Positions 30,954 through 38,059 of a stretch of DNA of 38,194 bases are shown in pieces. The position numbers and the translations under genes are program-made. Positions within the stretch are counted from its first letter, which is position 1. Each line of letters begins with the position of its first letter. Origin of the DNA: a virus; the UHGV virus genome UHGV-0004901; one strand, given 5' to 3'. Under the pieces are notes generated by a model. That model made no database searches and was not told the origin of the DNA. It worked only from the letters and a program-made list of their open reading frames with translations.

Positions 30954-31325
30954 ATGAACAGAATTATATTAATGATTATTCTTATGCTTTTAGTTGTAAA
31001 ATCTTTTGCAGATACTACCTCACCGTTAATGATTCAGCCTAAAAATGGGGAAACACTGGAGGATTCTAAAAAGCATACAATGGAATATTTTGGATGTATA
31101 AAAGGGCAGGTCGTAAAATACGCTAAGACAGGAGAAAGTGTTGATTCTATATCCAAAGCTTCGGTTGTGTCATGCGAGTCGTACATACAAAAGATTGCTG
31201 AATCAAATATATACTATTTAAATTCCTCTCAAGACGGTAAGCGGAAATTTATTGGAAGGCTTAAATCAGATGGTGAAAATTTAGCAACGAAATTTGCTAT
31301 GGATGAAAAGCTAAAAAATAAATAG
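30954..31325 (+). CDS. Secreted/periplasmic protein with signal peptide (moron, about 33% GC)
   Basis: N-terminal MNRIILMIILMLLVVKSFA signal peptide; two Cys in the mature part; very AT-rich compared with about 52% GC for the flanking virion genes. Confidence 0.55.
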   Translation: MNRIILMIILMLLVVKSFADTTSPLMIQPKNGETLEDSKKHTMEYFGCIKGQVVKYAKTGESVDSISKASVVSCESYIQKIAESNIYYLNSSQDGKRKFIGRLKSDGENLATKFAMDEKLKNK

Positions 31326-31333
31326 GTGACTAC

Positions 31334-31630
31334 ATGCAAGCGATAGGATTCATTGTTTATATCGTCGTTGGTCTTTTTCAGTTGGCAGCAATTATGGCTG
31401 GGCTTGAATCATGGTGGGGATTGCACTGGATAATTGCAGCCCCCATTGCTTTCATCGTGAGCTATATTCCATTTGTTGGAGCGATTGTTGGTATGGTTGG
31501 CGCTGTGGATGTATGGCGGTGGGAGTGGTGGCAGGCTGGCCTTCTCTTCTTTGGTGGGATCATCTTTGCTATTGTCTGCGGTGGAATGTCATCATTTTTC
31601 GAATGGCTATCATTCAGAAAAGGAACGTGA
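31334..31630 (+). CDS. Small integral membrane protein (3-4 predicted TM segments); candidate holin or exclusion protein
   Basis: 98 aa, hydrophobic throughout, Trp-rich loops; stop codon embedded in a GTGACATGTCAC palindrome. Confidence 0.5.
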   Translation: MQAIGFIVYIVVGLFQLAAIMAGLESWWGLHWIIAAPIAFIVSYIPFVGAIVGMVGAVDVWRWEWWQAGLLFFGGIIFAIVCGGMSSFFEWLSFRKGT

Positions 31631-31638
31631 CATGTCAC
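31627..31638. repeat. 12-bp perfect palindrome GTGACATGTCAC (copy 3 of 3)
   Basis: Direct reading; overlaps the TGA stop of the 31334..31630 gene in the same register as copy 1. Confidence 0.8.
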
Positions 31639-31663
31639 AGGCCGCTTTCGCGGCCTTGTTTTT
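31639..31663 (+). terminator. Rho-independent terminator ending the late/moron transcript
   Basis: AGGCCGC-TTTC-GCGGCCT hairpin followed by TGTTTTT. Confidence 0.7.
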
Positions 31664-31823
31664 AACGAATGCCACCGCCGCCCGGGCGGGAATCCGCAGA
31701 ACGCCCACCGCAGCGGGAGCCGTCAGCGGCAGTATCGCTGTCGTGCTGACAACGACCGGCAAAGGCCTGAGTTGAAGCTACCAGAGACAACAAAACGAAC
31801 AGTGCAGCAAATGCTTTTTTCAT
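31662..31823 (-). CDS. Small protein with Sec-type signal peptide (53 aa), speculative
   Basis: MKKAFAALFVLLSLVASTQAFA then a 31-aa Gly/Arg/Cys-containing tail; possible promoter TTGACG-16-TATAGA upstream; weak SD. Confidence 0.3.
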   Translation of the reverse strand: MKKAFAALFVLLSLVASTQAFAGRCQHDSDTAADGSRCGGRSADSRPGGGGIR

Positions 31824-31894
31824 TGTGACATTTCCATCTATAAGCCACCTCAATGTGGCGTCAATGAGTGTAGCACTGACTTTTGTTTCGTCCA

Positions 31895-31917
31895 CAAAAA
31901 AGCCCTCGCCGCGGGCT
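31895..31917 (-). terminator. Rho-independent terminator after the 31917..32456 gene
   Basis: Minus-strand AGCCC-GCGGCGA-GGGCT hairpin followed by a T6 run. Confidence 0.6.
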
Positions 31918-32456
31918 TACCAAAACTTGTACCACGGGGATTTATCCTTCAATGGACAATCCTTCCATCGTGTGGCTAACCATTCATATTCTTTAAAATA
32001 TGTGTTTATGTTTTCTTTTTCTCTAATAGCTTGTATAAGAGGTAGCGCAATCTGATAGTTATTTACAACGGAGCTGTAAAATACTTCCTTAATCATGGTC
32101 TCATCATAAGTTTTCCGCTTCACGCTCACAGCCATGCGTTCGTAGAAACCTAGACAGTAAATTATTTCTCTCTTCTCTATCTTTTCTTCATCCGTAAGAT
32201 CAGCCTGCCCATTGCTTGGATACATATAAGAGCGGAATGATTTGTTCGACTCGTGAATGCGGCGCATAGTAGATAGGCCTTTCTTATAATCTACATCAAA
32301 CCTGCTTTCACCAAGGAATACTGAAGTGTGTACTTTTCTCGCTGTATTTACATTATAAATAATAGTAGCGATAGCTATGAACAAGCCAAGCGAAACCGCG
32401 ACTGCACTTACGATTTGAGCCACAGCCATGGCAAATTGCATTTCTTCACTTAACAC
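31917..32456 (-). CDS. Membrane-anchored protein of unknown function (single N-terminal TM, about 36% GC); candidate superinfection-exclusion/defence protein
   Basis: GTG start with SD GGAG; TM segment AMAVAQIVSAVAVSLGLFIAIATII; AT-rich; occupies the position held by sieA in P22-type genomes. Confidence 0.55.
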   Translation of the reverse strand: MLSEEMQFAMAVAQIVSAVAVSLGLFIAIATIIYNVNTARKVHTSVFLGESRFDVDYKKGLSTMRRIHESNKSFRSYMYPSNGQADLTDEEKIEKREIIYCLGFYERMAVSVKRKTYDETMIKEVFYSSVVNNYQIALPLIQAIREKENINTYFKEYEWLATRWKDCPLKDKSPWYKFW

Positions 32457-32474
32457 AAACTGTCTCCAGACATG

Positions 32475-32496
32475 AAAACGGGGCCTAATGGCCCCG
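32475..32496 (-). terminator. Hairpin/terminator between the antirepressor gene and the 31917..32456 gene
   Basis: Minus-strand ACGGGGCC-ATTA-GGCCCCGT hairpin followed by TTTT. Confidence 0.5.
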
Positions 32497-32585
32497 TCAT
32501 TAAACTATCCGAATGTTAAACGCCTTCGTACTCGTCAAATTTTCTCATGTGGGCTCCTCCTGTATCGGTGCCTAATCGCTATGGA

Positions 32586-32600: not shown

Positions 32601-32672
32601 TAGTACTCTATTCACCACCCTGTCTGCAATCGTACAGAATTATTTAAAAGCACATCCATGTGCCACCGCCCG

Positions 32673-33383
32673 TCAGAAGAACCCTGCCTTGTCGTTGATG
32701 TATTCCGCGTGCGTCTGGATATCACGCAGGCATTTGCTCACACCGACGATGTAGCAGAACATGGTGGTCAGCTCCGCCGCCGCGCCCGATACGTCGTGCC
32801 CGTCTTCCTGTAACTGGTTCAGCAGATTCATCAGCAGTGAGTTCTCCGTCAGGCCGAGAACACCAGACGGCGAGTGAATCAGGCTGCGGTAGCCGGGCTT
32901 CAGCGGGGCGCTGTAGGTTTTGTTCTCTATCTTCATTGCCTGCATCACTGCTGATGCTGTGGCGTTTGCAACCTGGTCGGCAACCATCTTTATGCGTTCT
33001 TCCTGCGGGAGCGAGTTTTTAATGTAACTTCCGGTGCGGCGGATCTGAGGAAGAACCTCACCTGTAACCCATTTACGAAAGCGGTAGGGGATAGTGCCTG
33101 GTGTCACTGCGTCGCGGCAGCGGAGGATCAGTGTGTAGAGGCCTGACTCGGAGATGATGTTGATCTCTTTTACTCGGCTGTCAAAAATTGCACGATGTTC
33201 ATGCCCTATGTTGAACATAGACCTTTCATCATCATCCAGTTTTTCAAGTGCTTGGGTGACGTTTTGGATACGCAGCGCACTACAAACGTCTTGGGCTACA
33301 AACCATGGTTGGCCATCGATAATGATGGAACGGATAGGGTTAACAGATTCAAATTTGAAGATGGCAGTTTGAGCATTAGCCAT
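32673..33383 (-). CDS. ant: Antirepressor with Bro-N/KilA-N-type N-terminal domain
   Basis: ...FESVNPIRSIIIDGQPWFVAQDVCSALRIQN...GLYTLILRCRDA... matches Bro-N; start at ATG 33383 with SD GGAG. Confidence 0.8.
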   Translation of the reverse strand: MANAQTAIFKFESVNPIRSIIIDGQPWFVAQDVCSALRIQNVTQALEKLDDDERSMFNIGHEHRAIFDSRVKEINIISESGLYTLILRCRDAVTPGTIPYRFRKWVTGEVLPQIRRTGSYIKNSLPQEERIKMVADQVANATASAVMQAMKIENKTYSAPLKPGYRSLIHSPSGVLGLTENSLLMNLLNQLQEDGHDVSGAAAELTTMFCYIVGVSKCLRDIQTHAEYINDKAGFF

Positions 33384-33652
33384 GGTGGTTATCTCCACTT
33401 AGTGATTTTAATCACCACCGCAACGCCAATTACTGGTGGTGAACTGGACAAGGTTGGCGTACCGGCCTAAGTGGTACCGGCGTCCTTTCGGACCCCTGCC
33501 CAGCCCACCATAATTCGGATATAGCTGTGCTTAACGCATAAAAAAACCACGTCTGGCGTGGTATGCGCCACTTAGTAACTCGGGACGCCAATCCCGGCAC
33601 TGGATTTTGCCAGTACCCGATTACTATGGCACAAGAGGAGTGCGATGTAAAT

Positions 33653-33780: not shown

Positions 33781-34509
33781 ATGGAAGTTTTCTGGATAGT
33801 TGTTGGTGTGGTTGCGGTGATTATTTATGTTATCAACCAGAACAAGACTAAGATCTCTGATCGTACGGTCGTTAATCATAACAAAACGATAAAGACCGAA
33901 GATGGGGAGATAACGATTAATCGTACACAGGTGATAGAACACACCTCTACTCAGTTTCAAAAAACTGGAGGTAATGCGCCTAATATTTCCGCACCTCCTG
34001 CTTATGATAGTGCGGTAATCCAGACATATTATAAACAGCAGGAGTTAGCAAAAGAGAGGCAACTGATTCAGCCAAAGCCGTTTACAGCTGAGCTTCCACC
34101 TGGAGTGTCAACGCGTCCGGCATATCATGGAAGATTCCCTGGTGATGACATATCGTCTCAGTCATCTAAAAAAGCACCTCAGGCAGTATCAGAGCCAGCA
34201 AGAATACCTTCTGTATCGCCGCCAAAAGAAGAATCAGCTAACAGAGTTTCAAGTGGTAGCAAGCAGTGCTTGCGATGCAGAATAAACCTACCATATGAAA
34301 AATTCAGGAAATCGTCAAAAAATCCAGATGGATTGACTAAGTGGTGTGCAAGGTGTCTCGATGGCCCAAAGAATACACGCCATATGAAGTGGTGCCCAAT
34401 TTGTAATGTCCGCAGAAAACGAACCAGCTTTTACCCTAATAATCAAAATGCGGACGGATTAATGGCATGGTGCAAAACGTGCTGGGATGAGCACAAAGCG
34501 AAACGATAG
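33781..34509 (+). CDS. Membrane-anchored protein with two tandem CxxC...DGLxxWCxxC zinc-ribbon-like repeats (unknown function)
   Basis: N-terminal TM MEVFWIVVGVVAVIIYVI; C-terminal repeats CLRCRINLPYEKFRKSSKNPDGLTKWCARC and CPICNVRRKRTSFYPNNQNADGLMAWCKTC. Confidence 0.6.
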   Translation: MEVFWIVVGVVAVIIYVINQNKTKISDRTVVNHNKTIKTEDGEITINRTQVIEHTSTQFQKTGGNAPNISAPPAYDSAVIQTYYKQQELAKERQLIQPKPFTAELPPGVSTRPAYHGRFPGDDISSQSSKKAPQAVSEPARIPSVSPPKEESANRVSSGSKQCLRCRINLPYEKFRKSSKNPDGLTKWCARCLDGPKNTRHMKWCPICNVRRKRTSFYPNNQNADGLMAWCKTCWDEHKAKR

Positions 34510-34984: not shown

Positions 34985-37900
34985 ATGACGGTCTCAACCG
35001 AAGTTGACCACAACGAATACACCGGTAACGGAGTTACGACATCATTTCCGTATACCTTCCGTATTTTCAAAAAATCCGACCTGGTTGTTCAGGTGTCTGA
35101 TCTGAACGGGAACGTAACAGAATTGGTGCTTGATACCGGTTATAAGGTAACTGGAGCGGGCACTTATAGTGGCGGTGAAGTGGTTCTTCCGTCGCCGCTT
35201 GCTGCTGGCTGGCGAATTACGATAGAGCGTGTGCTTGATGTGGTGCAGGAGACTGATCTTCGCAATCAGGGAAAATTTTTCCCCGAAGTTCATGAGGATG
35301 CATTCGACTACCTGACGATGCTGATCCAGCGATGTTTTGGGTGGTTCAGACGTGCATTGATGAAGCCCTCGCTGCTTGCAAAATATTACGATGCAAAGCA
35401 AAACAAAATTTCTAACCTTGCAGATCCATCACTTGAGCAGGACGCTGTAAATAATCGTTCAATGCGTAAGTATGTGGATGCTGCAATTGCTGGTGTTGTC
35501 GGTGGTTTCGGATGGTTTATCCAGTATGGTGCTGGAGCTGTATACAGAACGTTCCAGGATAAGATGCGTGATACAGTAAGTGTGAAAGATTATGCTGCTG
35601 TTGGAGATGGTATAACTGATGATACGAATTCTTTTATTCTGGCTCCTGAAAATGCTTATGTTCCACCTGGAGTATATCTTGTTGATACGTTGAAAGTAGA
35701 TGTAAGCAAAATGACAGGGGAAGGGATGATTCTTTCCAAAACTGGTCATCTACTTTCTCTTCGTAATAATATCAGTAATACATTGGTGCAACGCCATTTA
35801 ATGGAAGCATTTATGGGTTTTGGTGAGTCCCAAGTTTTTCCAAATGGTGAGGCTACAAGTCAAGGGTGTGCTTATGCGAATTATAATGGTAAAAAATTAT
35901 TTATTTTACAAACGGTTGTTGGCAGTGCTGAAGGTAGTGGAAACTTCAACTCTAAAGTAACATCAGCTGGTGACTTCATAACCGGAATTGAATATGAAAT
36001 AGTAAGTATAGGTTCAACTGATTTTACAACTATAGGGGCTGCTGAAAATAATATTGGTGTACGATTTACGGCGAATGGTCCAGGGGTTGGTACAGGAACA
36101 GCAGCTGCTTTAGAGAAGCGCAGGCTGGTTGAATACTCGTTTTCTGATGATGGTTCAGTAGTGCAAAATACTACTTACACTGCACCAATATTAAATAACC
36201 ATCAGGGAATATCTACGATAGTTATTGATGATGACCTTTTTATTTATACCCAAATGGTTACCCAGCCTACATATCGAGGAAATGATGGAGGAAAAGGTTA
36301 TTCAAAATTAATTTGGAAAGGGAGCAGCACATCTGAATCTGATGTGATTACTTATCAGCTTTTTGGATATTCTGGTTCTGGTCATCCTTATCAGAATTAT
36401 AATTCAGCAACCCCGTGTGTATCTTCAGATGGAAGGTATGTTGTTCTTGTTGCAACTGATAGCACAGCAGATGATGATGCCTGGTATGTATTTGTTTACA
36501 GCAGGATACACGTAGAATCCCTTGACAATAGTTTGGAAGCAAGACCATTGTATTATTTCAGGATTCCACATCCGCAGCGCGGAACTGATACTCATGTTAT
36601 TCAAGATGTTGCCAGTGATGGTAAGTACATCTATATATTAAGGGGATATACACATCCGTTCATGTTGCATATTATTCAGAAGTTTGATTATTCTGGTAAT
36701 ATTCTTGCTGAATTTTCATTTGAGGGGGCTCGTTCTCTTTATGGATACAAAAATCTTATGGATAATCCAAAGTATGGGACCCCCCATTCATTTGAACCTG
36801 AAGGTATAGACATGTATGAAGGAGACCTTATTATTCTAACTATGGATAATTGGGATTCTGGAGCTTCTATTATAACTTACAAAGGAAAGAATTATTCCGC
36901 TTTTTCTACTGCTTCTGGTATTGCTCCGGATGATCCCGATGGATTTAGAATGTGGGCGATAACAAATAAAGTTAGTGGTGGGGAATACTCGAATGATAAA
37001 AAGTACAGCGATGGAGTGTATTCGAAACGAGGAAAACAGATATTTCTTATTTCACAATCGCGTGGGGTTGCTAATGAACTCCCATTGAATTCCGCCTTGA
37101 CAACTCGTGTTAATAACTCACCACTTTCTTCTATAAGTTCTGCTTTTGATGTTTCCTTTAAATTAGGAGAGAACTGGATATTGGGGGGGTATTCAGAAAA
37201 TACTTCAGAATATAAAAAAGCCATTCAGTATGCTAGTAATGGTGCTTTTCGTGTTCATGATTCCCGCAGAGAATCTGACAATAATAAGTACTGGTCTATA
37301 CGTGGTGGATATGATGTAACACCGCAGATACAAGAAGTTGTTGAATTTAGGTGTCGTGGTACTGTAGAAAATGGGGCTGGCTGGAATGCTTATGGTTCTA
37401 ATGACTATCGCTTACCAAACAGGTTTCGTATGTTCCCTGGCGGGAGCTTTGGCGGTACTCAAGTTCTTGTCGAGATAGCTAATCCAGTTAATGATAATCC
37501 TTATTTTGCTCCCACAGGGCAGATAGGAACAGTTAATAATGGTACAACGACAGCATACTGGAATAACATATATAGCAAGAATGCTGTCACTGTTGTTTCA
37601 GATGTTAATTACAAAGATGAATTCTCGGATATACCGACTGAACTTATTGAAGCCGTGGGTAGTGTAAAATTTCAAATGTGGAAGATGAAGGATGAAATAT
37701 TACGAAAAGGAAGTGAACATGCCAGATATCATTTTGGAGTTGTAGCGCAGCAAGTTAAGGATGCAATTACAAAAGCTGGTCTTGATTGGAAGAAGTATGG
37801 TCTTATTACGTATGAAGAAACCAGTGTTTTGGTAAGAGAAAACGAATCTGGTGATTTTTATCCTATTGATATTGAGTCTTGTCCAATTCCAGTTAATGAA

Positions 37901-38059
37901 TTTGGGATTATTAAATTAATAGAAGGTGCAGATGAAATTAAAGAAGATAAACATGGAAATTTGGTATTGACAAGATCTATTTACATGATGCGTATGGATG
38001 AATTTGAAATAATAAGGATGGCATATCAAGAAAAGAAAATAGCGGATCTAATAAGTTAA
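34985..38059 (+). CDS. Tail fibre/tailspike protein: T7 gp17-like N-terminal virion-attachment domain, AT-rich distal receptor-binding region, C-terminal chaperone-like segment
   Basis: N-terminus ...TGNGVTTSFPYTFRIFKKSDLVVQV...RITIERVLDVVQETDLRNQGKFFP resembles the T7 tail fibre N-terminal domain; GC drops from about 50% to about 36% after roughly 35.6 kb; C-terminal ...SDVNYKDEF...YHFGVVAQQVKD... resembles intramolecular chaperone (S74-like) domains. Confidence 0.8.
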   Translation: MTVSTEVDHNEYTGNGVTTSFPYTFRIFKKSDLVVQVSDLNGNVTELVLDTGYKVTGAGTYSGGEVVLPSPLAAGWRITIERVLDVVQETDLRNQGKFFPEVHEDAFDYLTMLIQRCFGWFRRALMKPSLLAKYYDAKQNKISNLADPSLEQDAVNNRSMRKYVDAAIAGVVGGFGWFIQYGAGAVYRTFQDKMRDTVSVKDYAAVGDGITDDTNSFILAPENAYVPPGVYLVDTLKVDVSKMTGEGMILSKTGHLLSLRNNISNTLVQRHLMEAFMGFGESQVFPNGEATSQGCAYANYNGKKLFILQTVVGSAEGSGNFNSKVTSAGDFITGIEYEIVSIGSTDFTTIGAAENNIGVRFTANGPGVGTGTAAALEKRRLVEYSFSDDGSVVQNTTYTAPILNNHQGISTIVIDDDLFIYTQMVTQPTYRGNDGGKGYSKLIWKGSSTSESDVITYQLFGYSGSGHPYQNYNSATPCVSSDGRYVVLVATDSTADDDAWYVFVYSRIHVESLDNSLEARPLYYFRIPHPQRGTDTHVIQDVASDGKYIYILRGYTHPFMLHIIQKFDYSGNILAEFSFEGARSLYGYKNLMDNPKYGTPHSFEPEGIDMYEGDLIILTMDNWDSGASIITYKGKNYSAFSTASGIAPDDPDGFRMWAITNKVSGGEYSNDKKYSDGVYSKRGKQIFLISQSRGVANELPLNSALTTRVNNSPLSSISSAFDVSFKLGENWILGGYSENTSEYKKAIQYASNGAFRVHDSRRESDNNKYWSIRGGYDVTPQIQEVVEFRCRGTVENGAGWNAYGSNDYRLPNRFRMFPGGSFGGTQVLVEIANPVNDNPYFAPTGQIGTVNNGTTTAYWNNIYSKNAVTVVSDVNYKDEFSDIPTELIEAVGSVKFQMWKMKDEILRKGSEHARYHFGVVAQQVKDAITKAGLDWKKYGLITYEETSVLVRENESGDFYPIDIESCPIPVNEFGIIKLIEGADEIKEDKHGNLVLTRSIYMMRMDEFEIIRMAYQEKKIADLIS

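What the first reader, a model, noticed from the sequence alone, without database searches (positions are those of the whole stretch)
30954..32500. AT-rich accessory island between the ejection genes and the antirepressor: candidate undescribed exclusion/defence cassette
Four genes of atypical composition occupy the position where P22-type phages carry sieA and immI: a secreted protein with signal peptide (30954..31325, about 33% GC), a multi-pass membrane protein (31334..31630), a convergent small signal-peptide ORF (31662..31823), and a single-TM membrane-anchored protein (31917..32456, about 36% GC) with its own operator, leader and terminators. None shows a recognisable enzymatic motif. 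All are predicted envelope-associated, as expected for proteins that block superinfecting phage DNA entry or trigger abortive infection.
Basis: inference. Interest (0 to 1): 0.7.

Follow-up and report, generated by a model that had tools for sequence, protein, structure and literature searches.

The report
Mosaic prophage accessory slot, not a cassette
The four small envelope-protein genes are real, but they are independently shuffled passengers in a variable slot of an epsilon15-like E. coli prophage. One of them, a DUF4760 membrane protein that always travels with a conserved 10-residue leader peptide and a terminator, is a good but untested candidate anti-phage gene.

Summary
All four ORFs exist at the stated coordinates. 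Only ORF1 (33% GC) and ORF4 (39%) are AT-rich; ORF2 is 46.5% and ORF3 58%.

The window is an epsilon15/phiV10-like E. coli prophage. The genes lie between the last ejection gene and a c4-RNA/Bro-N antirepressor region, syntenic with P22 sieA-immI.

They are not one cassette. Among 59 related loci the slot measures 245-4606 bp and shows 13 presence/absence combinations. All four occur together only here and in one RefSeq genome.
- ORF1 (secreted, helical, two invariant Cys) and ORF2 (three TM segments) end the late operon.
- ORF3 is a separate 53-aa secreted peptide.
- ORF4 is a Pfam DUF4760 protein: one TM helix plus a helical domain inferred to be cytoplasmic.

DUF4760 is an autonomous moron. 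It also sits in the P2 gpA-gpQ (old/tin) hotspot and in other temperate-phage sites.

It is almost always preceded by a conserved mini-ORF (window MRKFDEYEGV; core D-E-[FY]-[DE]-[GW]-[FVI]-stop) and an intrinsic terminator.

No gene matches a known defence family. A defence or exclusion role remains an inference from position.

The parts
30954..31325 (+). ORF1: 123-aa secreted (signal-peptide) helical protein, 32.8% GC. It starts 1 nt after the stop of the last ejection gene.
   Evidence: ORF. GC and hydrophobic N-terminus.
Homologues of 60-98% identity occur only in Enterobacteriaceae. Each follows the stop of an 848-aa last ejection protein by 1 nt. The same holds for a 42%-identical relative behind a 924-aa ejection protein.
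The mature part is conserved and the signal peptide is variable. C48 and C74 are invariant.
31334..31630 (+). ORF2: 98-aa small inner-membrane protein with about three TM segments. It is the last gene of the late transcription unit.
   Evidence: phrog_3075 (unknown function) E=1.6e-54. Found only in epsilon15-like E. coli and Klebsiella phages. A 61-64% identical version sits directly after the ejection gene in other loci.
31639..31656 (+). Intrinsic terminator hairpin (AGGCCGC-TTTC-GCGGCCT followed by a T-run) that ends the ORF1-ORF2/late transcript. It lies between the convergent ORF2 and ORF3.
   Evidence: The homologous site is annotated 'terminator' in the phage phiV10 records (H12/H13).
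31662..31823 (-). ORF3: 53-aa pre-peptide with a signal peptide (MKKAFAALFVLLSLVASTQAFA). The mature part is about 31 aa, Gly/Asp/Arg-rich, with two Cys. 58% GC.
   Evidence: The RefSeq annotation calls the 53-aa form (WP_000708858.1). phrog_14503 'membrane associated protein' E=7.5e-40. It is 100% identical in E. coli epsilon15-like phages and 82-86% in Klebsiella ones. It is present or absent independently of the other three genes.
31900..31918 (-). Intrinsic terminator directly after the ORF4 stop codon.
   Evidence: AAGCCCGCGGCGAGGGCTT followed by TTTTGTGG.
31917..32456 (-). ORF4: 179-aa DUF4760 protein with an N-terminal TM helix and an all-helical domain inferred to be cytoplasmic. 38.9% GC.
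   Evidence: Pfam PF15956: E=1.6e-30, 106.6 bits against a 25-bit cut-off. phrog_2284. Homologues across Enterobacterales, and at 26-31% identity in Pseudomonas and Alteromonas phages.
AF2 model: pLDDT 93.
32475..32496 (-). Attenuator-like intrinsic terminator (CGGGGCC-AUUA-GGCCCCG plus UUUU). It lies 19 nt after the leader stop and 18 nt before the ORF4 GTG.
   Evidence: Sequence. A stem-loop plus T-run is found in 38 of 39 unique leader regions, with 13 different complementary arm pairs. The stop-to-stem distance is 17-21 nt in 34 of 38, and the median dG is -14.6 kcal/mol.
32516..32548 (-). Conserved leader mini-ORF MRKFDEYEGV*, with a strong Shine-Dalgarno (GGAGGAG, about 32553-32561).
Found upstream of DUF4760 in 96 of about 98 assessable loci. 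These span epsilon15-like, P2-like, other prophage and chromosomal contexts. It is also present in Pseudomonas phage zjk6, as ...REEYEGI*.
Third codon positions vary freely while D-E-[FY]-[DE]-[GW]-[FVI]-stop is kept. No Rfam family covers the region.
32642..32665 (-). Hairpin plus T-rich run just after the stop of the Bro-N antirepressor gene. It is a probable end of the c4-ant transcript and separates it from the DUF4760 module.
   Evidence: Read directly from the sequence (GCACAT-GG-ATGTGC then TTTTAAAT). It is conserved with compensatory changes in the Klebsiella loci. The terminator scan did not list it, so it is tentative.

Best explanation
ANATOMY (shown). The interval is the hypervariable accessory slot of an epsilon15/phiV10-like temperate podophage. 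It lies between the ejection-protein genes and the c4/antirepressor immunity region. In this window the slot holds three unrelated units.

(1) ORF1 and ORF2. These are the tightly spaced last genes of the late operon, closed by a terminator. ORF1 starts 1 nt after the ejection-gene stop; ORF2 starts 8 nt after ORF1. ORF1 is a secreted, disulfide-capable helical protein. ORF2 is a small three-TM membrane protein.

(2) ORF3. A separately transcribed 53-aa secreted peptide.

(3) The DUF4760 module. It runs 5' to 3' on the minus strand: Shine-Dalgarno, then a 10-codon leader ORF, then an intrinsic terminator 19 nt later, then the Shine-Dalgarno and GTG of a single-pass membrane protein, then a second terminator. 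The helical domain is inferred to face the cytoplasm.

DISTRIBUTION (shown). The DUF4760 module moves as a unit between phage types. It is found in this slot, in the P2 gpA-gpQ old/tin hotspot, between lambdoid tail genes, next to integrases, and alone in chromosomes.

MECHANISM (inferred).
- In the lysogen the leader is transcribed and translated constitutively, and most transcripts stop at the attenuator. DUF4760 protein is therefore kept low.
- Read-through would rise when translation of the conserved acidic-aromatic leader peptide is disturbed, for example by ribosome arrest at its stop codon or loss of translation capacity during infection.
- DUF4760 would then act at the inner membrane as a conditional anti-phage effector (abortive infection or entry block).
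- ORF1, ORF2 and ORF3 are most likely periplasmic or membrane exclusion or surface-modifying factors, like the other signal-peptide and lipoprotein genes that replace them at the same position in related phages.

None of the functional steps is demonstrated.
For: Phage type and context.

Independent assortment.
- Among 59 related loci the distance from ejection gene to tailspike is 245-4606 bp, with 13 presence/absence patterns.
- Only 1 of 5426 complete E. coli genomes covers at least 80% of the four-gene interval, while 541 carry parts of it.
- In Klebsiella prophages DUF4760 is the only gene called between the ejection gene and the antirepressor.

ORF1 and the late operon.
- There is a 1-nt gap after the ejection gene in every locus listed.
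- Alternative occupants of that position are other secreted, lipoprotein or TM proteins.

DUF4760 mobility.
- Of 99 loci, 48 are epsilon15-like, 33 P2-like and 18 other.
- It sits right after portal gene Q in E. coli, Pectobacterium and Providencia P2-like prophages, each with different neighbours.
- It is also found between lambdoid tail genes, after tail fibres, and next to an integrase.
- 'DUF4760' occurs 197 times in the P2-hotspot arrangement table of Rousset 2022, which established that locus as a defence hotspot.

Leader and attenuator.
- Present in 96 of about 98 loci.
- Synonymous third positions are split about 50:50 while the residues are kept.
- The hairpin is kept through 13 different arm pairs at fixed spacing.
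- It is conserved as far as a 31%-identical Pseudomonas homologue.

Topology. The N-terminus is acidic and K/R residues follow the TM helix. The orientation follows from the positive-inside rule and is an inference.
Against: - There is no experimental or homology link to any known defence or exclusion protein. PADLOC gave nothing for the four genes or for ten alternative cargo proteins.
- There is no similarity to P22 SieA.
- No antiterminator structure could be demonstrated. RNAalifold gave no consensus on the MAFFT alignment. SD:anti-SD pairing was no better than shuffles in 17 of 18 cases.
- With 19 nt between the stop codon and the stem, a ribosome at the stop codon would not by itself melt the hairpin.
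- A sigma-70 promoter for the module is weak or ambiguous in the window, although clear TTGAC-type promoters are visible in homologous modules (read by eye).
- The leader motif also occurs away from DUF4760, so it may be a free micropeptide rather than a sensor.
- Late-operon placement of ORF1 and ORF2 is equally compatible with a role in the phage's own lytic cycle.
Confidence: 0.55

Rival explanations
1. One reading: the four genes form one co-acting exclusion or defence cassette acquired as an AT-rich island.
For: The genes are adjacent, all are envelope-associated, and they occupy the sieA-like position. ORF1-like, ORF2-like and DUF4760 genes co-occur again in one distant locus, L179.
Against: - There are 13 presence/absence patterns among 59 loci, and the full set occurs only here.
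- The genes lie in three transcription units on two strands, separated by terminators.
- GC content ranges from 33% to 58%.
- DUF4760 occurs alone in this slot and in unrelated phages.
Confidence: 0.04
2. The mini-ORF and DUF4760 form a toxin/antitoxin-like pair. A labile acidic decapeptide, made in excess because of the intervening terminator, binds and silences the membrane protein. Loss of translation would free the toxin, giving prophage addiction or abortive infection.
For: - The peptide sequence, not the nucleotide sequence, is conserved.
- The order upstream ORF, terminator, downstream gene would give a high peptide-to-protein ratio.
- The same slot holds YafO-like and DUF1902/HicB-like genes in other phages.
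- Mini-ORFs with the same motif exist on their own in other phages.
Against: - The window-type leader is followed in 7 loci by a different 211-aa cargo, without the hairpin.
- The motif also occurs upstream of gene 47 in T4-like phages and downstream of a putative Q-like antiterminator gene (assigned by eye, not family-tested) in lambdoid contigs. Both argue against a DUF4760-specific partner.
- No complex prediction could be run.
Confidence: 0.15
3. ORF1, ORF2 and perhaps ORF3 serve the phage's own lytic cycle rather than protecting the lysogen. Being late-expressed periplasmic or membrane factors, they could assist ejection-protein handling, lysis timing, or prevention of progeny re-adsorption.
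For: ORF1 follows the last ejection gene by 1 nt in every locus and diverges in step with it: 98% with a 99%-identical ejection protein, 87-89% with 89-90%, and 42% with a 924-aa variant. ORF1 and ORF2 share the late-operon terminator.
Against: ORF1 and ORF2 are absent from most related phages: ORF1 is in 12 of 59 loci and ORF2 in 14 of 59. They are therefore dispensable. They are replaced by unrelated secreted proteins and lipoproteins, as is typical of morons. ORF1 is 33% GC against 55% for its neighbour.
Confidence: 0.2
4. DUF4760 is a membrane-anchored relative of the plant EP domain. It would bind a nucleotide-derived immune signal, acting either as an effector or receptor, or as a phage-encoded sponge (counter-defence).
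Against: - Foldseek E-values are 0.8-3, which is not significant.
- None of 81 family members hits Pfam EDS1_EP even at E<=10.
- A profile search of PDB sequences found nothing.
- The protein is all-helical with a 49-residue helix, which can inflate scores.
- There is no lipase-like domain and no signal-producing enzyme in the module.
Confidence: 0.08
5. The genes are lysogenic-conversion morons that alter host physiology (envelope stress, colonisation, resistance to colicins or antimicrobials) and have no role in phage-phage conflict.
For: Small secreted and membrane proteins of unknown function are typical conversion genes. DUF4760 also sits alone in chromosomes, next to the ast operon in Rahnella and in a Pantoea island. 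The only paper that mentions DUF4760 lists it in a genomic island of a disinfectant-resistant Serratia.
Against: DUF4760 recurs in a validated defence hotspot and in the sieA-equivalent position. There is no positive evidence for any host phenotype.
Confidence: 0.12

Closest known systems
P22 SieA superinfection-exclusion protein (Leavitt et al. 2024, PMC10883804)
   Same: Same genomic position: after the three ejection-protein genes, convergent with them, and before the antirepressor immunity region and tailspike. [quoted passage not shown]
   Different: No sequence relationship to ORF4 (BLASTP E=43; hhalign probability 1.4%). ORF4 has a single TM helix plus a helical domain and also occurs in myoviruses and siphoviruses, so it cannot be specific to podovirus ejection conduits. 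ORF1, ORF2 and ORF3 were not compared with SieA.
Cargo of the P2 gpA-gpQ (old/tin) anti-phage hotspot (Rousset et al. 2022, PMC9122126)
   Same: DUF4760 homologues of about 50% identity lie directly after portal gene Q in P2-like prophages of three genera. 'DUF4760' appears 197 times in that paper's table of hotspot arrangements.
   Different: The main text does not report DUF4760 among the systems that showed defence. The window's copy is in a different phage family and a different slot. PADLOC has no model for it.
EP domain of plant EDS1/PAD4/SAG101 (Pfam PF18117)
   Same: It is the best structural match to the high-confidence AF2 model by two programs. Both are all-helical domains of proteins linked to immunity.
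   Different: - There is no detectable sequence similarity, and Foldseek E-values are about 1.
- DUF4760 lacks the lipase-like domain and carries a TM anchor.
- EP domains work as heterodimers that bind TIR-made nucleotides, and nothing of that kind was tested here.
- Bhandari et al. [quoted passage not shown]
Leader-peptide transcription attenuators and arrest peptides (trpL/hisL type; tnaC, ermCL, speFL type)
   Same: A short ORF with a strong Shine-Dalgarno is followed by an intrinsic terminator and then the regulated gene. Conservation is at the peptide level, as in arrest peptides.
   Different: There are no runs of regulatory codons. No alternative antiterminator hairpin was found. The motif D-E-[FY]-[DE]-[GW]-[FVI]-stop matches no arrest peptide that I know of (own knowledge). 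No Rfam family matches.
Late-operon exclusion lipoproteins and periplasmic exclusion proteins (Cor of phi80/N15, Llp of T5, Ltp of TP-J34). Comparison from established knowledge, not tested here.
   Same: ORF1 and the alternative occupants of its position are small exported proteins or lipoproteins encoded at the end of a virion-gene operon. One ORF1 homologue is a lipoprotein form (P0146).
   Different: There is no sequence or fold similarity to any of them. The receptor here is O-antigen with a tailspike, not an outer-membrane porin.
P1/P7 immI (c4 antisense RNA - icd - ant). Context only.
   Same: C4 RNA, its a1/b1 target and isrK lie directly upstream of the Bro-N antirepressor.
   Different: This element lies outside the finding.

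Membership tests
Pfam DUF4760 (PF15956) | HMM score above the curated gathering threshold | tested here: met
   ORF4 scores 106.6 bits against a 25-bit cut-off, E=1.6e-30, covering profile positions 2-141 of 141. All 81 aligned homologues match.
P22 SieA family | Sequence homology to SieA | tested here: not met
   P22 SieA against ORF4: BLASTP E=43. DUF4760 profile against SieA: hhalign probability 1.4%. Only the P22 (type A) sequence was compared; types B and C were not available.
P22 SieA family | Gene located between the ejection genes and the antirepressor/tailspike, convergent with the ejection genes | tested here: met
   P22 map compared with the window map.
P22 SieA family | Inner-membrane protein that blocks DNA injection through the ejection-protein conduit | not testable with these tools
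   Only a predicted TM helix is available. The function needs infection assays.
Known anti-phage defence systems (PADLOC-DB v2) | HMM match to any component model | tested here: not met
   No hit at E<=1 for ORF1-4, the antirepressor or the 242-aa protein. No hit at E<=0.01 for ten alternative cargo proteins of the slot.
P2 old/tin hotspot cargo | Located between replication gene A and portal gene Q of P2-like prophages | tested here: met
   Met for homologues of 47-52% identity, not for the window copy: L017, L019, L020. 33 P2-like loci (30 of them next to portal Q) among the 99 DUF4760 loci. Rousset 2022 table.
P2 old/tin hotspot cargo | Demonstrated protection against phages | not testable with these tools
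   Not reported for DUF4760 in the paper's main text.
EDS1-family EP domain (PF18117) | Sequence match to the EP-domain profile | tested here: not met
   None of the 81 members hits EDS1_EP at E<=10. A PDB sequence-profile search returned nothing.
EDS1-family EP domain (PF18117) | Same helical fold | tested here: inconclusive
EDS1-family EP domain (PF18117) | Fused to an N-terminal lipase-like domain, and heterodimerises to bind TIR-derived nucleotides | tested here: not met
   The domain architecture is a TM helix plus a helical domain only. Ligand binding cannot be tested here.
Leader-peptide attenuator | Short translated ORF with a Shine-Dalgarno upstream of the regulated gene | tested here: met
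   Present in 96 of about 98 loci. Synonymous variation with conserved residues indicates that it is translated.
Leader-peptide attenuator | Intrinsic terminator between the leader and the gene | tested here: met
   Found in 38 of 39 unique regions, with 13 compensatory arm pairs and fixed spacing.
Leader-peptide attenuator | Mutually exclusive antiterminator structure controlled by ribosome position | tested here: inconclusive
   No consensus structure came from RNAalifold on the MAFFT alignment. SD:downstream duplexes were not better than shuffles.
P1/P7-type immI (context) | C4 antisense RNA upstream of an antirepressor gene | tested here: met
   Rfam C4 scores 66 bits against a 45-bit gathering score at 33432-33515(-). 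isrK scores 63.5 against 50. The Bro-N gene lies at 33398..32673.

The most novel reading that the evidence does not exclude
DUF4760 would be the first non-plant relative of the EDS1/PAD4/SAG101 EP domain. In this reading it is a phage-borne, membrane-anchored immune module whose synthesis is gated by a new kind of acidic-aromatic leader peptide (D-E-F/Y-D/E-G-F/V-stop). Phages of several families would also use that peptide as a translation-sensing switch or as a free micropeptide.
Probability: 0.1. Interest if true: 0.85.

Novelty: new variant of a known kind. Interest (0 to 1): 0.55.

Why it matters
Prophage accessory slots are a main source of new anti-phage genes. This analysis replaces a vague "four-gene island" with one precise, portable and testable unit: leader ORF, attenuator and DUF4760.

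That unit is common. Parts of the interval occur in about 10% of complete E. coli genomes (541 of 5426). The unit also recurs in the validated P2 defence hotspot and has never been characterised.

The conserved mini-ORF is a candidate new regulatory peptide or micropeptide. The same motif is found in T4-like and lambdoid phages.

If the EP-domain resemblance reflects common ancestry, it would bear on the unexplained origin of a domain central to plant TIR immunity.

The slot itself, with its many alternative secreted proteins and lipoproteins placed right after the ejection genes, is a natural library for studying exclusion of short-tailed phages.

Tried and rejected
Searches that found nothing useful
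- PADLOC, NCBIfam and PDB-sequence searches of all four proteins gave nothing.
- An HMM search with the ORF1 profile against 1.84 billion representatives found only 17 hits. The top hit (P0144, 2352 aa, 40 stretches) is a repeat-protein artefact, not a homologue.
- The AFDB50 fold library was not available.
- A full-text search found one paper that mentions DUF4760, only in a gene list. A 2026 paper on P2/P4 hotspots has no searchable supplements.

Hypotheses tested and dropped
- SieA homology is rejected.
- RNAalifold on a MAFFT alignment of 24 leader regions predicted no pairs, because the hairpins were aligned out of register. I replaced this with per-sequence hairpin statistics.
- The idea that an 'AACCTC' box pairs with the leader Shine-Dalgarno in the P2-type modules was not better than shuffled controls (z < -2 in 1 of 18), so I dropped it.
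- A sigma-70 promoter for the DUF4760 module could not be fixed in the window. The scan gives only a 9/12 match that overlaps the ant hairpin, and my by-eye TTGCAG-18-TACTAT has a poor -35.
- The alternative 77-aa start for ORF3 is rejected, because the canonical signal peptide must be N-terminal and the RefSeq annotation calls the 53-aa form.


Full report
**1. What is in the sequence**

- ORF1: 30954-31325 (+), 123 aa.
- ORF2: 31334-31630 (+), 98 aa.
- ORF3: 31662-31823 (-), 53 aa from MKKAF.
- ORF4: 31917-32456 (-), 179 aa, GTG start behind a GGAGAC Shine-Dalgarno.

A 100% identical stretch exists in E. coli SW070919 (NZ_CM129861.1). NCBI's annotation calls exactly these four genes there.

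GC content is 0.328, 0.465, 0.580 and 0.389 for ORF1 to ORF4. The window as a whole is 0.492 and the preceding ejection gene 0.548. There are therefore two AT-rich patches, not one island.

Hydropathy gives the following:
- ORF1 and ORF3 have an N-terminal signal-like segment.
- ORF2 has about three TM segments.
- ORF4 has one TM segment (residues about 6-39).

**2. Context**

The window is an epsilon15/phiV10-like temperate podophage. This rests on DNA matches to phiV10, TL-2011b, HEMP4 and phiv142-3, and on the 850-aa protein upstream matching PHROG 684 'virion structural protein'.

Downstream on the minus strand lie, in order:
- a Bro-N antirepressor (32673-33398);
- C4 antisense RNA (33432-33515; 66 bits against a 45-bit cut-off);
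- isrK (33540-33616) and the c4 a1/b1 target.

After these comes the tailspike gene, on the plus strand.

The gene order ejection genes, accessory genes, antirepressor region, tailspike mirrors P22 (7-20-16, sieA, mnt/arc/ant, 9). The immunity region, however, is of the P1/P7 c4-ant type, not the P22 mnt/arc/sar type.

**3. Not a cassette**

I collected 76 loci that encode a relative of the last ejection protein, from IMG/VR and from one genome per species.
- In the 59 loci that also contain the tailspike, the distance between the two genes ranges from 245 to 4606 bp. The window has 4033 bp.
- ORF1, ORF2, ORF3 and DUF4760 occur in 13 different presence/absence combinations.
- Of 5426 complete E. 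coli genomes, 541 carry part of the interval but only one carries at least 80% of it.
- In Klebsiella prophages DUF4760 is the only gene called between the ejection gene and the antirepressor.
- In other E. coli prophages the DUF4760 position is taken by a YafO-family toxin gene, and ORF1 by a 57-aa ORF.

Clustering all slot ORFs showed many alternative occupants. None of ten representatives hit PADLOC. Only a weak YafO match and a DUF1902 match appeared in Pfam.

**4. ORF1 and ORF2**

ORF1 homologues of 60-98% identity occur only in Enterobacteriaceae. Each begins 1 nt after the stop of the 848-aa last ejection protein.

A 42%-identical relative occupies the same place behind a 924-aa ejection protein. 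There it is followed by a 98-aa ORF at the ORF2 position and by DUF4760.

A sensitive profile search found only a small family of roughly 90-120-aa, mostly secreted, proteins, plus one lipoprotein form.

The signal peptide varies while the mature part is strongly conserved, with two invariant cysteines. The AF2 model is helical with pLDDT 89.9 and has no specific structural relative.

In related phages the same plus-strand position directly after the ejection gene is filled by other signal-peptide proteins, lipoproteins or small membrane proteins. ORF2 and ORF3 are confined to epsilon15-like E. coli and Klebsiella phages. A terminator at 31639-31656 closes the late transcript and is annotated as such in phiV10.

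I infer that these are exported accessory proteins of the exclusion or surface-modification kind. A role in the phage's own lytic cycle cannot be excluded.

**5. ORF4 is a mobile DUF4760 module**

ORF4 matches Pfam DUF4760 well above threshold. One paper in the searchable library mentions the domain, only in a gene list.

Homologues of 41-99% identity are spread over Enterobacterales. More distant ones occur in Pseudomonas, Alteromonas and Acinetobacter phages.

Among 99 loci with the gene, 48 are in the epsilon15-type slot, 33 are in P2-like prophages and 18 are elsewhere.
- In P2-like prophages of E. coli, Pectobacterium and Providencia the gene lies directly after portal gene Q, with different neighbours each time.
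- That locus, between gpA and gpQ, is the old/tin hotspot that Rousset et al. 2022 showed to be rich in anti-phage systems.
- Their supplementary table lists 'DUF4760' 197 times, but the main text does not report it among the systems that showed defence.
- Other sites include between apparent lambdoid tail genes (a putative K-like peptidase and an I-like tail protein, assigned by eye), together with two lipoprotein genes; after tail-fibre genes; between tape-measure and baseplate genes; and beside an integrase.
- Lone chromosomal copies also exist.

This is the behaviour of an autonomous single-gene moron.

**6. A conserved leader peptide and attenuator**

Between the antirepressor stop and ORF4 lies a 10-codon ORF, MRKFDEYEGV* (32548..32516, minus strand), behind a strong GGAGGAG Shine-Dalgarno.
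- A GC-rich hairpin with a U-run (32496..32475) follows 19 nt after its stop codon.
- The ORF4 GTG follows 18 nt after that.

Klebsiella copies differ by four synonymous changes plus R to K.

The same arrangement precedes DUF4760 in P2-like, chromosomal and other contexts. Examples are MKKMYDEFDGF*, MRKFDEFEGF*, MNMIYDEYDWF* and MKMVFDEFDGF*. It also precedes a 31%-identical homologue in Pseudomonas phage zjk6 (...REEYEGI*).

Overall 96 of about 98 assessable loci have it; one has lost it through an upstream rearrangement.

Among 24 distinct versions of the last seven codons, third positions are split roughly evenly between synonymous codons. The residues remain D(23/24)-E(24/24)-[FY]-[DE]-[GW]-[FVI]-stop.

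In 38 of 39 unique leader regions a stem-loop plus T-run follows:
- 13 different but complementary arm pairs;
- stop-to-stem spacing of 17-21 nt in 34 of 38;
- 12-18 nt from the T-run to the start codon in 36 of 38.

No Rfam family matches.

This is strong evidence for a translated leader and a conserved terminator, that is, an attenuator-like device. I could not identify an antiterminator, so the sensing mechanism is unknown.

**7. The leader motif is not exclusive to DUF4760**

An exact scan of IMG/VR for F-D-E-F-D-G-F-stop gave 41 sites, where by my estimate fewer than one is expected by chance. Of these, 32 lie upstream of DUF4760 and 9 do not. The nine include:
- A mini-ORF MFSLRKFDAEDVDFFDEFDGF* followed by a hairpin, just upstream of gene 47 in Karamvirus (CC31/PG7-type T4-like) phages. 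It is conserved in 41 phage records and is not annotated.
- MLDEFEGFDEFDGF* between a putative Q-like antiterminator gene (assigned by eye, not family-tested) and the lysis genes of lambdoid contigs.

In 7 epsilon15-like loci the window-type leader is followed, without the hairpin, by an unrelated 211-aa gene.

The peptide is therefore either a general phage regulatory leader or a free micropeptide. This weakens the idea that it is a DUF4760-specific antitoxin. From memory only, its acidic stretch ending in an aromatic or aliphatic residue recalls the C-terminal tips of SSB proteins. I did not test this.

**8. Structure of DUF4760**

With an 81-sequence alignment AF2 gave pLDDT 93 and pTM 0.81. 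The model has a long helix (residues 4-52) that contains the TM segment, followed by a helical bundle.

Foldseek independently ranked EDS1 chains first (TM-score 0.50-0.54 normalised to the query, probability up to 0.89). Its E-values were 0.8-3.3.

No sequence method links the families. [quoted passage not shown]

I treat this as the closest known fold and as a lead, not as membership.

The acidic N-terminus and the basic residues after the TM helix suggest that the helical domain faces the cytoplasm. This is an inference from the positive-inside rule.

**9. Mechanism and verdict**

Shown:
- the anatomy;
- the independent assortment of the four genes;
- the family membership of ORF4;
- its mobility, including into a validated defence hotspot;
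- the conserved leader and terminator.

Inferred:
- DUF4760 is kept low by attenuation and acts at the inner membrane as a conditional anti-phage effector.
- ORF1-3 are exported exclusion-type factors.

No known defence or exclusion family is matched.

The 'single cassette' reading is wrong. The defence hypothesis remains plausible mainly for ORF4.

Noticed in passing
window 33432-33629 (-): C4 antisense RNA (66 bits), isrK (63.5 bits) and the c4 a1/b1 target lie directly upstream of the Bro-N antirepressor. The immunity-I region is therefore of the P1/P7 (c4-ant) type rather than the P22 mnt/arc/sar type.
   Followed up: partly
window 33781-34509 (+): A 242-aa protein with an N-terminal TM helix and two C-terminal Cys4 zinc-ribbon-like repeats. 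It gives weak Stc1, endonuclease VII and Lar-like PHROG hits. It lies between the c4 region and the tailspike module, is 43% GC, and is present in only 2 of the related loci (L032, L094). It looks like another moron.
   Followed up: no
L187:10680-10790, L221 (Enterobacter phage CC31, NC_014662 about 34200-34300): T4-like Karamvirus phages carry an unannotated mini-ORF MFSLRKFDAEDVDFFDEFDGF*. It overlaps the end of an 87-aa zinc-ribbon ORF and is followed 3 nt later by a terminator hairpin and then gene 47 (SbcD/Mre11-like). It is conserved in 41 phage records.
   Followed up: partly
L183:5020-5110, L197:1250-1340, L186:11570-11640: Mini-ORFs MLDEFEGFDEFDGF* and MFDEFDGF*, each followed immediately by a hairpin. 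In L183 and L197 they sit downstream of a 195-aa gene that I took by eye for a Q-like antiterminator (not family-tested) and upstream of the lysis genes, in lambdoid-type viral contigs.
   Followed up: partly
L229, L231, L241, L244, L251 (3788-3820), L252, L263: The window-type leader MRKFDEYEGV*, with its identical upstream region, is followed by an unrelated 211-aa protein of unknown function instead of the hairpin and DUF4760. The break point lies about 13 nt after the leader stop, which suggests cargo exchange at that junction.
   Followed up: partly
L133:5596-6538; L030:9233-9745: Several proteins of about 153-170 aa share the DUF4760 architecture (N-terminal TM helix plus helical domain) without detectable similarity to it. 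They occupy the same slot, sometimes as two tandem paralogues next to DUF4760.
   Followed up: no
L127:4983-6539: In a lambdoid-type contig the DUF4760 module and two small lipoprotein genes (150 and 139 aa) are inserted between what look like lambdoid tail genes (a putative K-like peptidase and an I-like tail protein, assigned by eye, not family-tested).
   Followed up: no
L001:10286-12196 (NZ_CM129861.1): In the only RefSeq genome with the identical four-gene interval, the tailspike gene is interrupted by an IS3-family element. The window has an intact 1024-aa ORF at 34985-38059.
   Followed up: no
L003:4216-4761; phage TL-2011b: In many related E. coli prophages the DUF4760 position is occupied by a gene annotated as a YafO-family toxin, with no adjacent antitoxin called. 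The Pfam match of a related slot protein is weak (E=2.4e-4, below the cut-off).
   Followed up: partly
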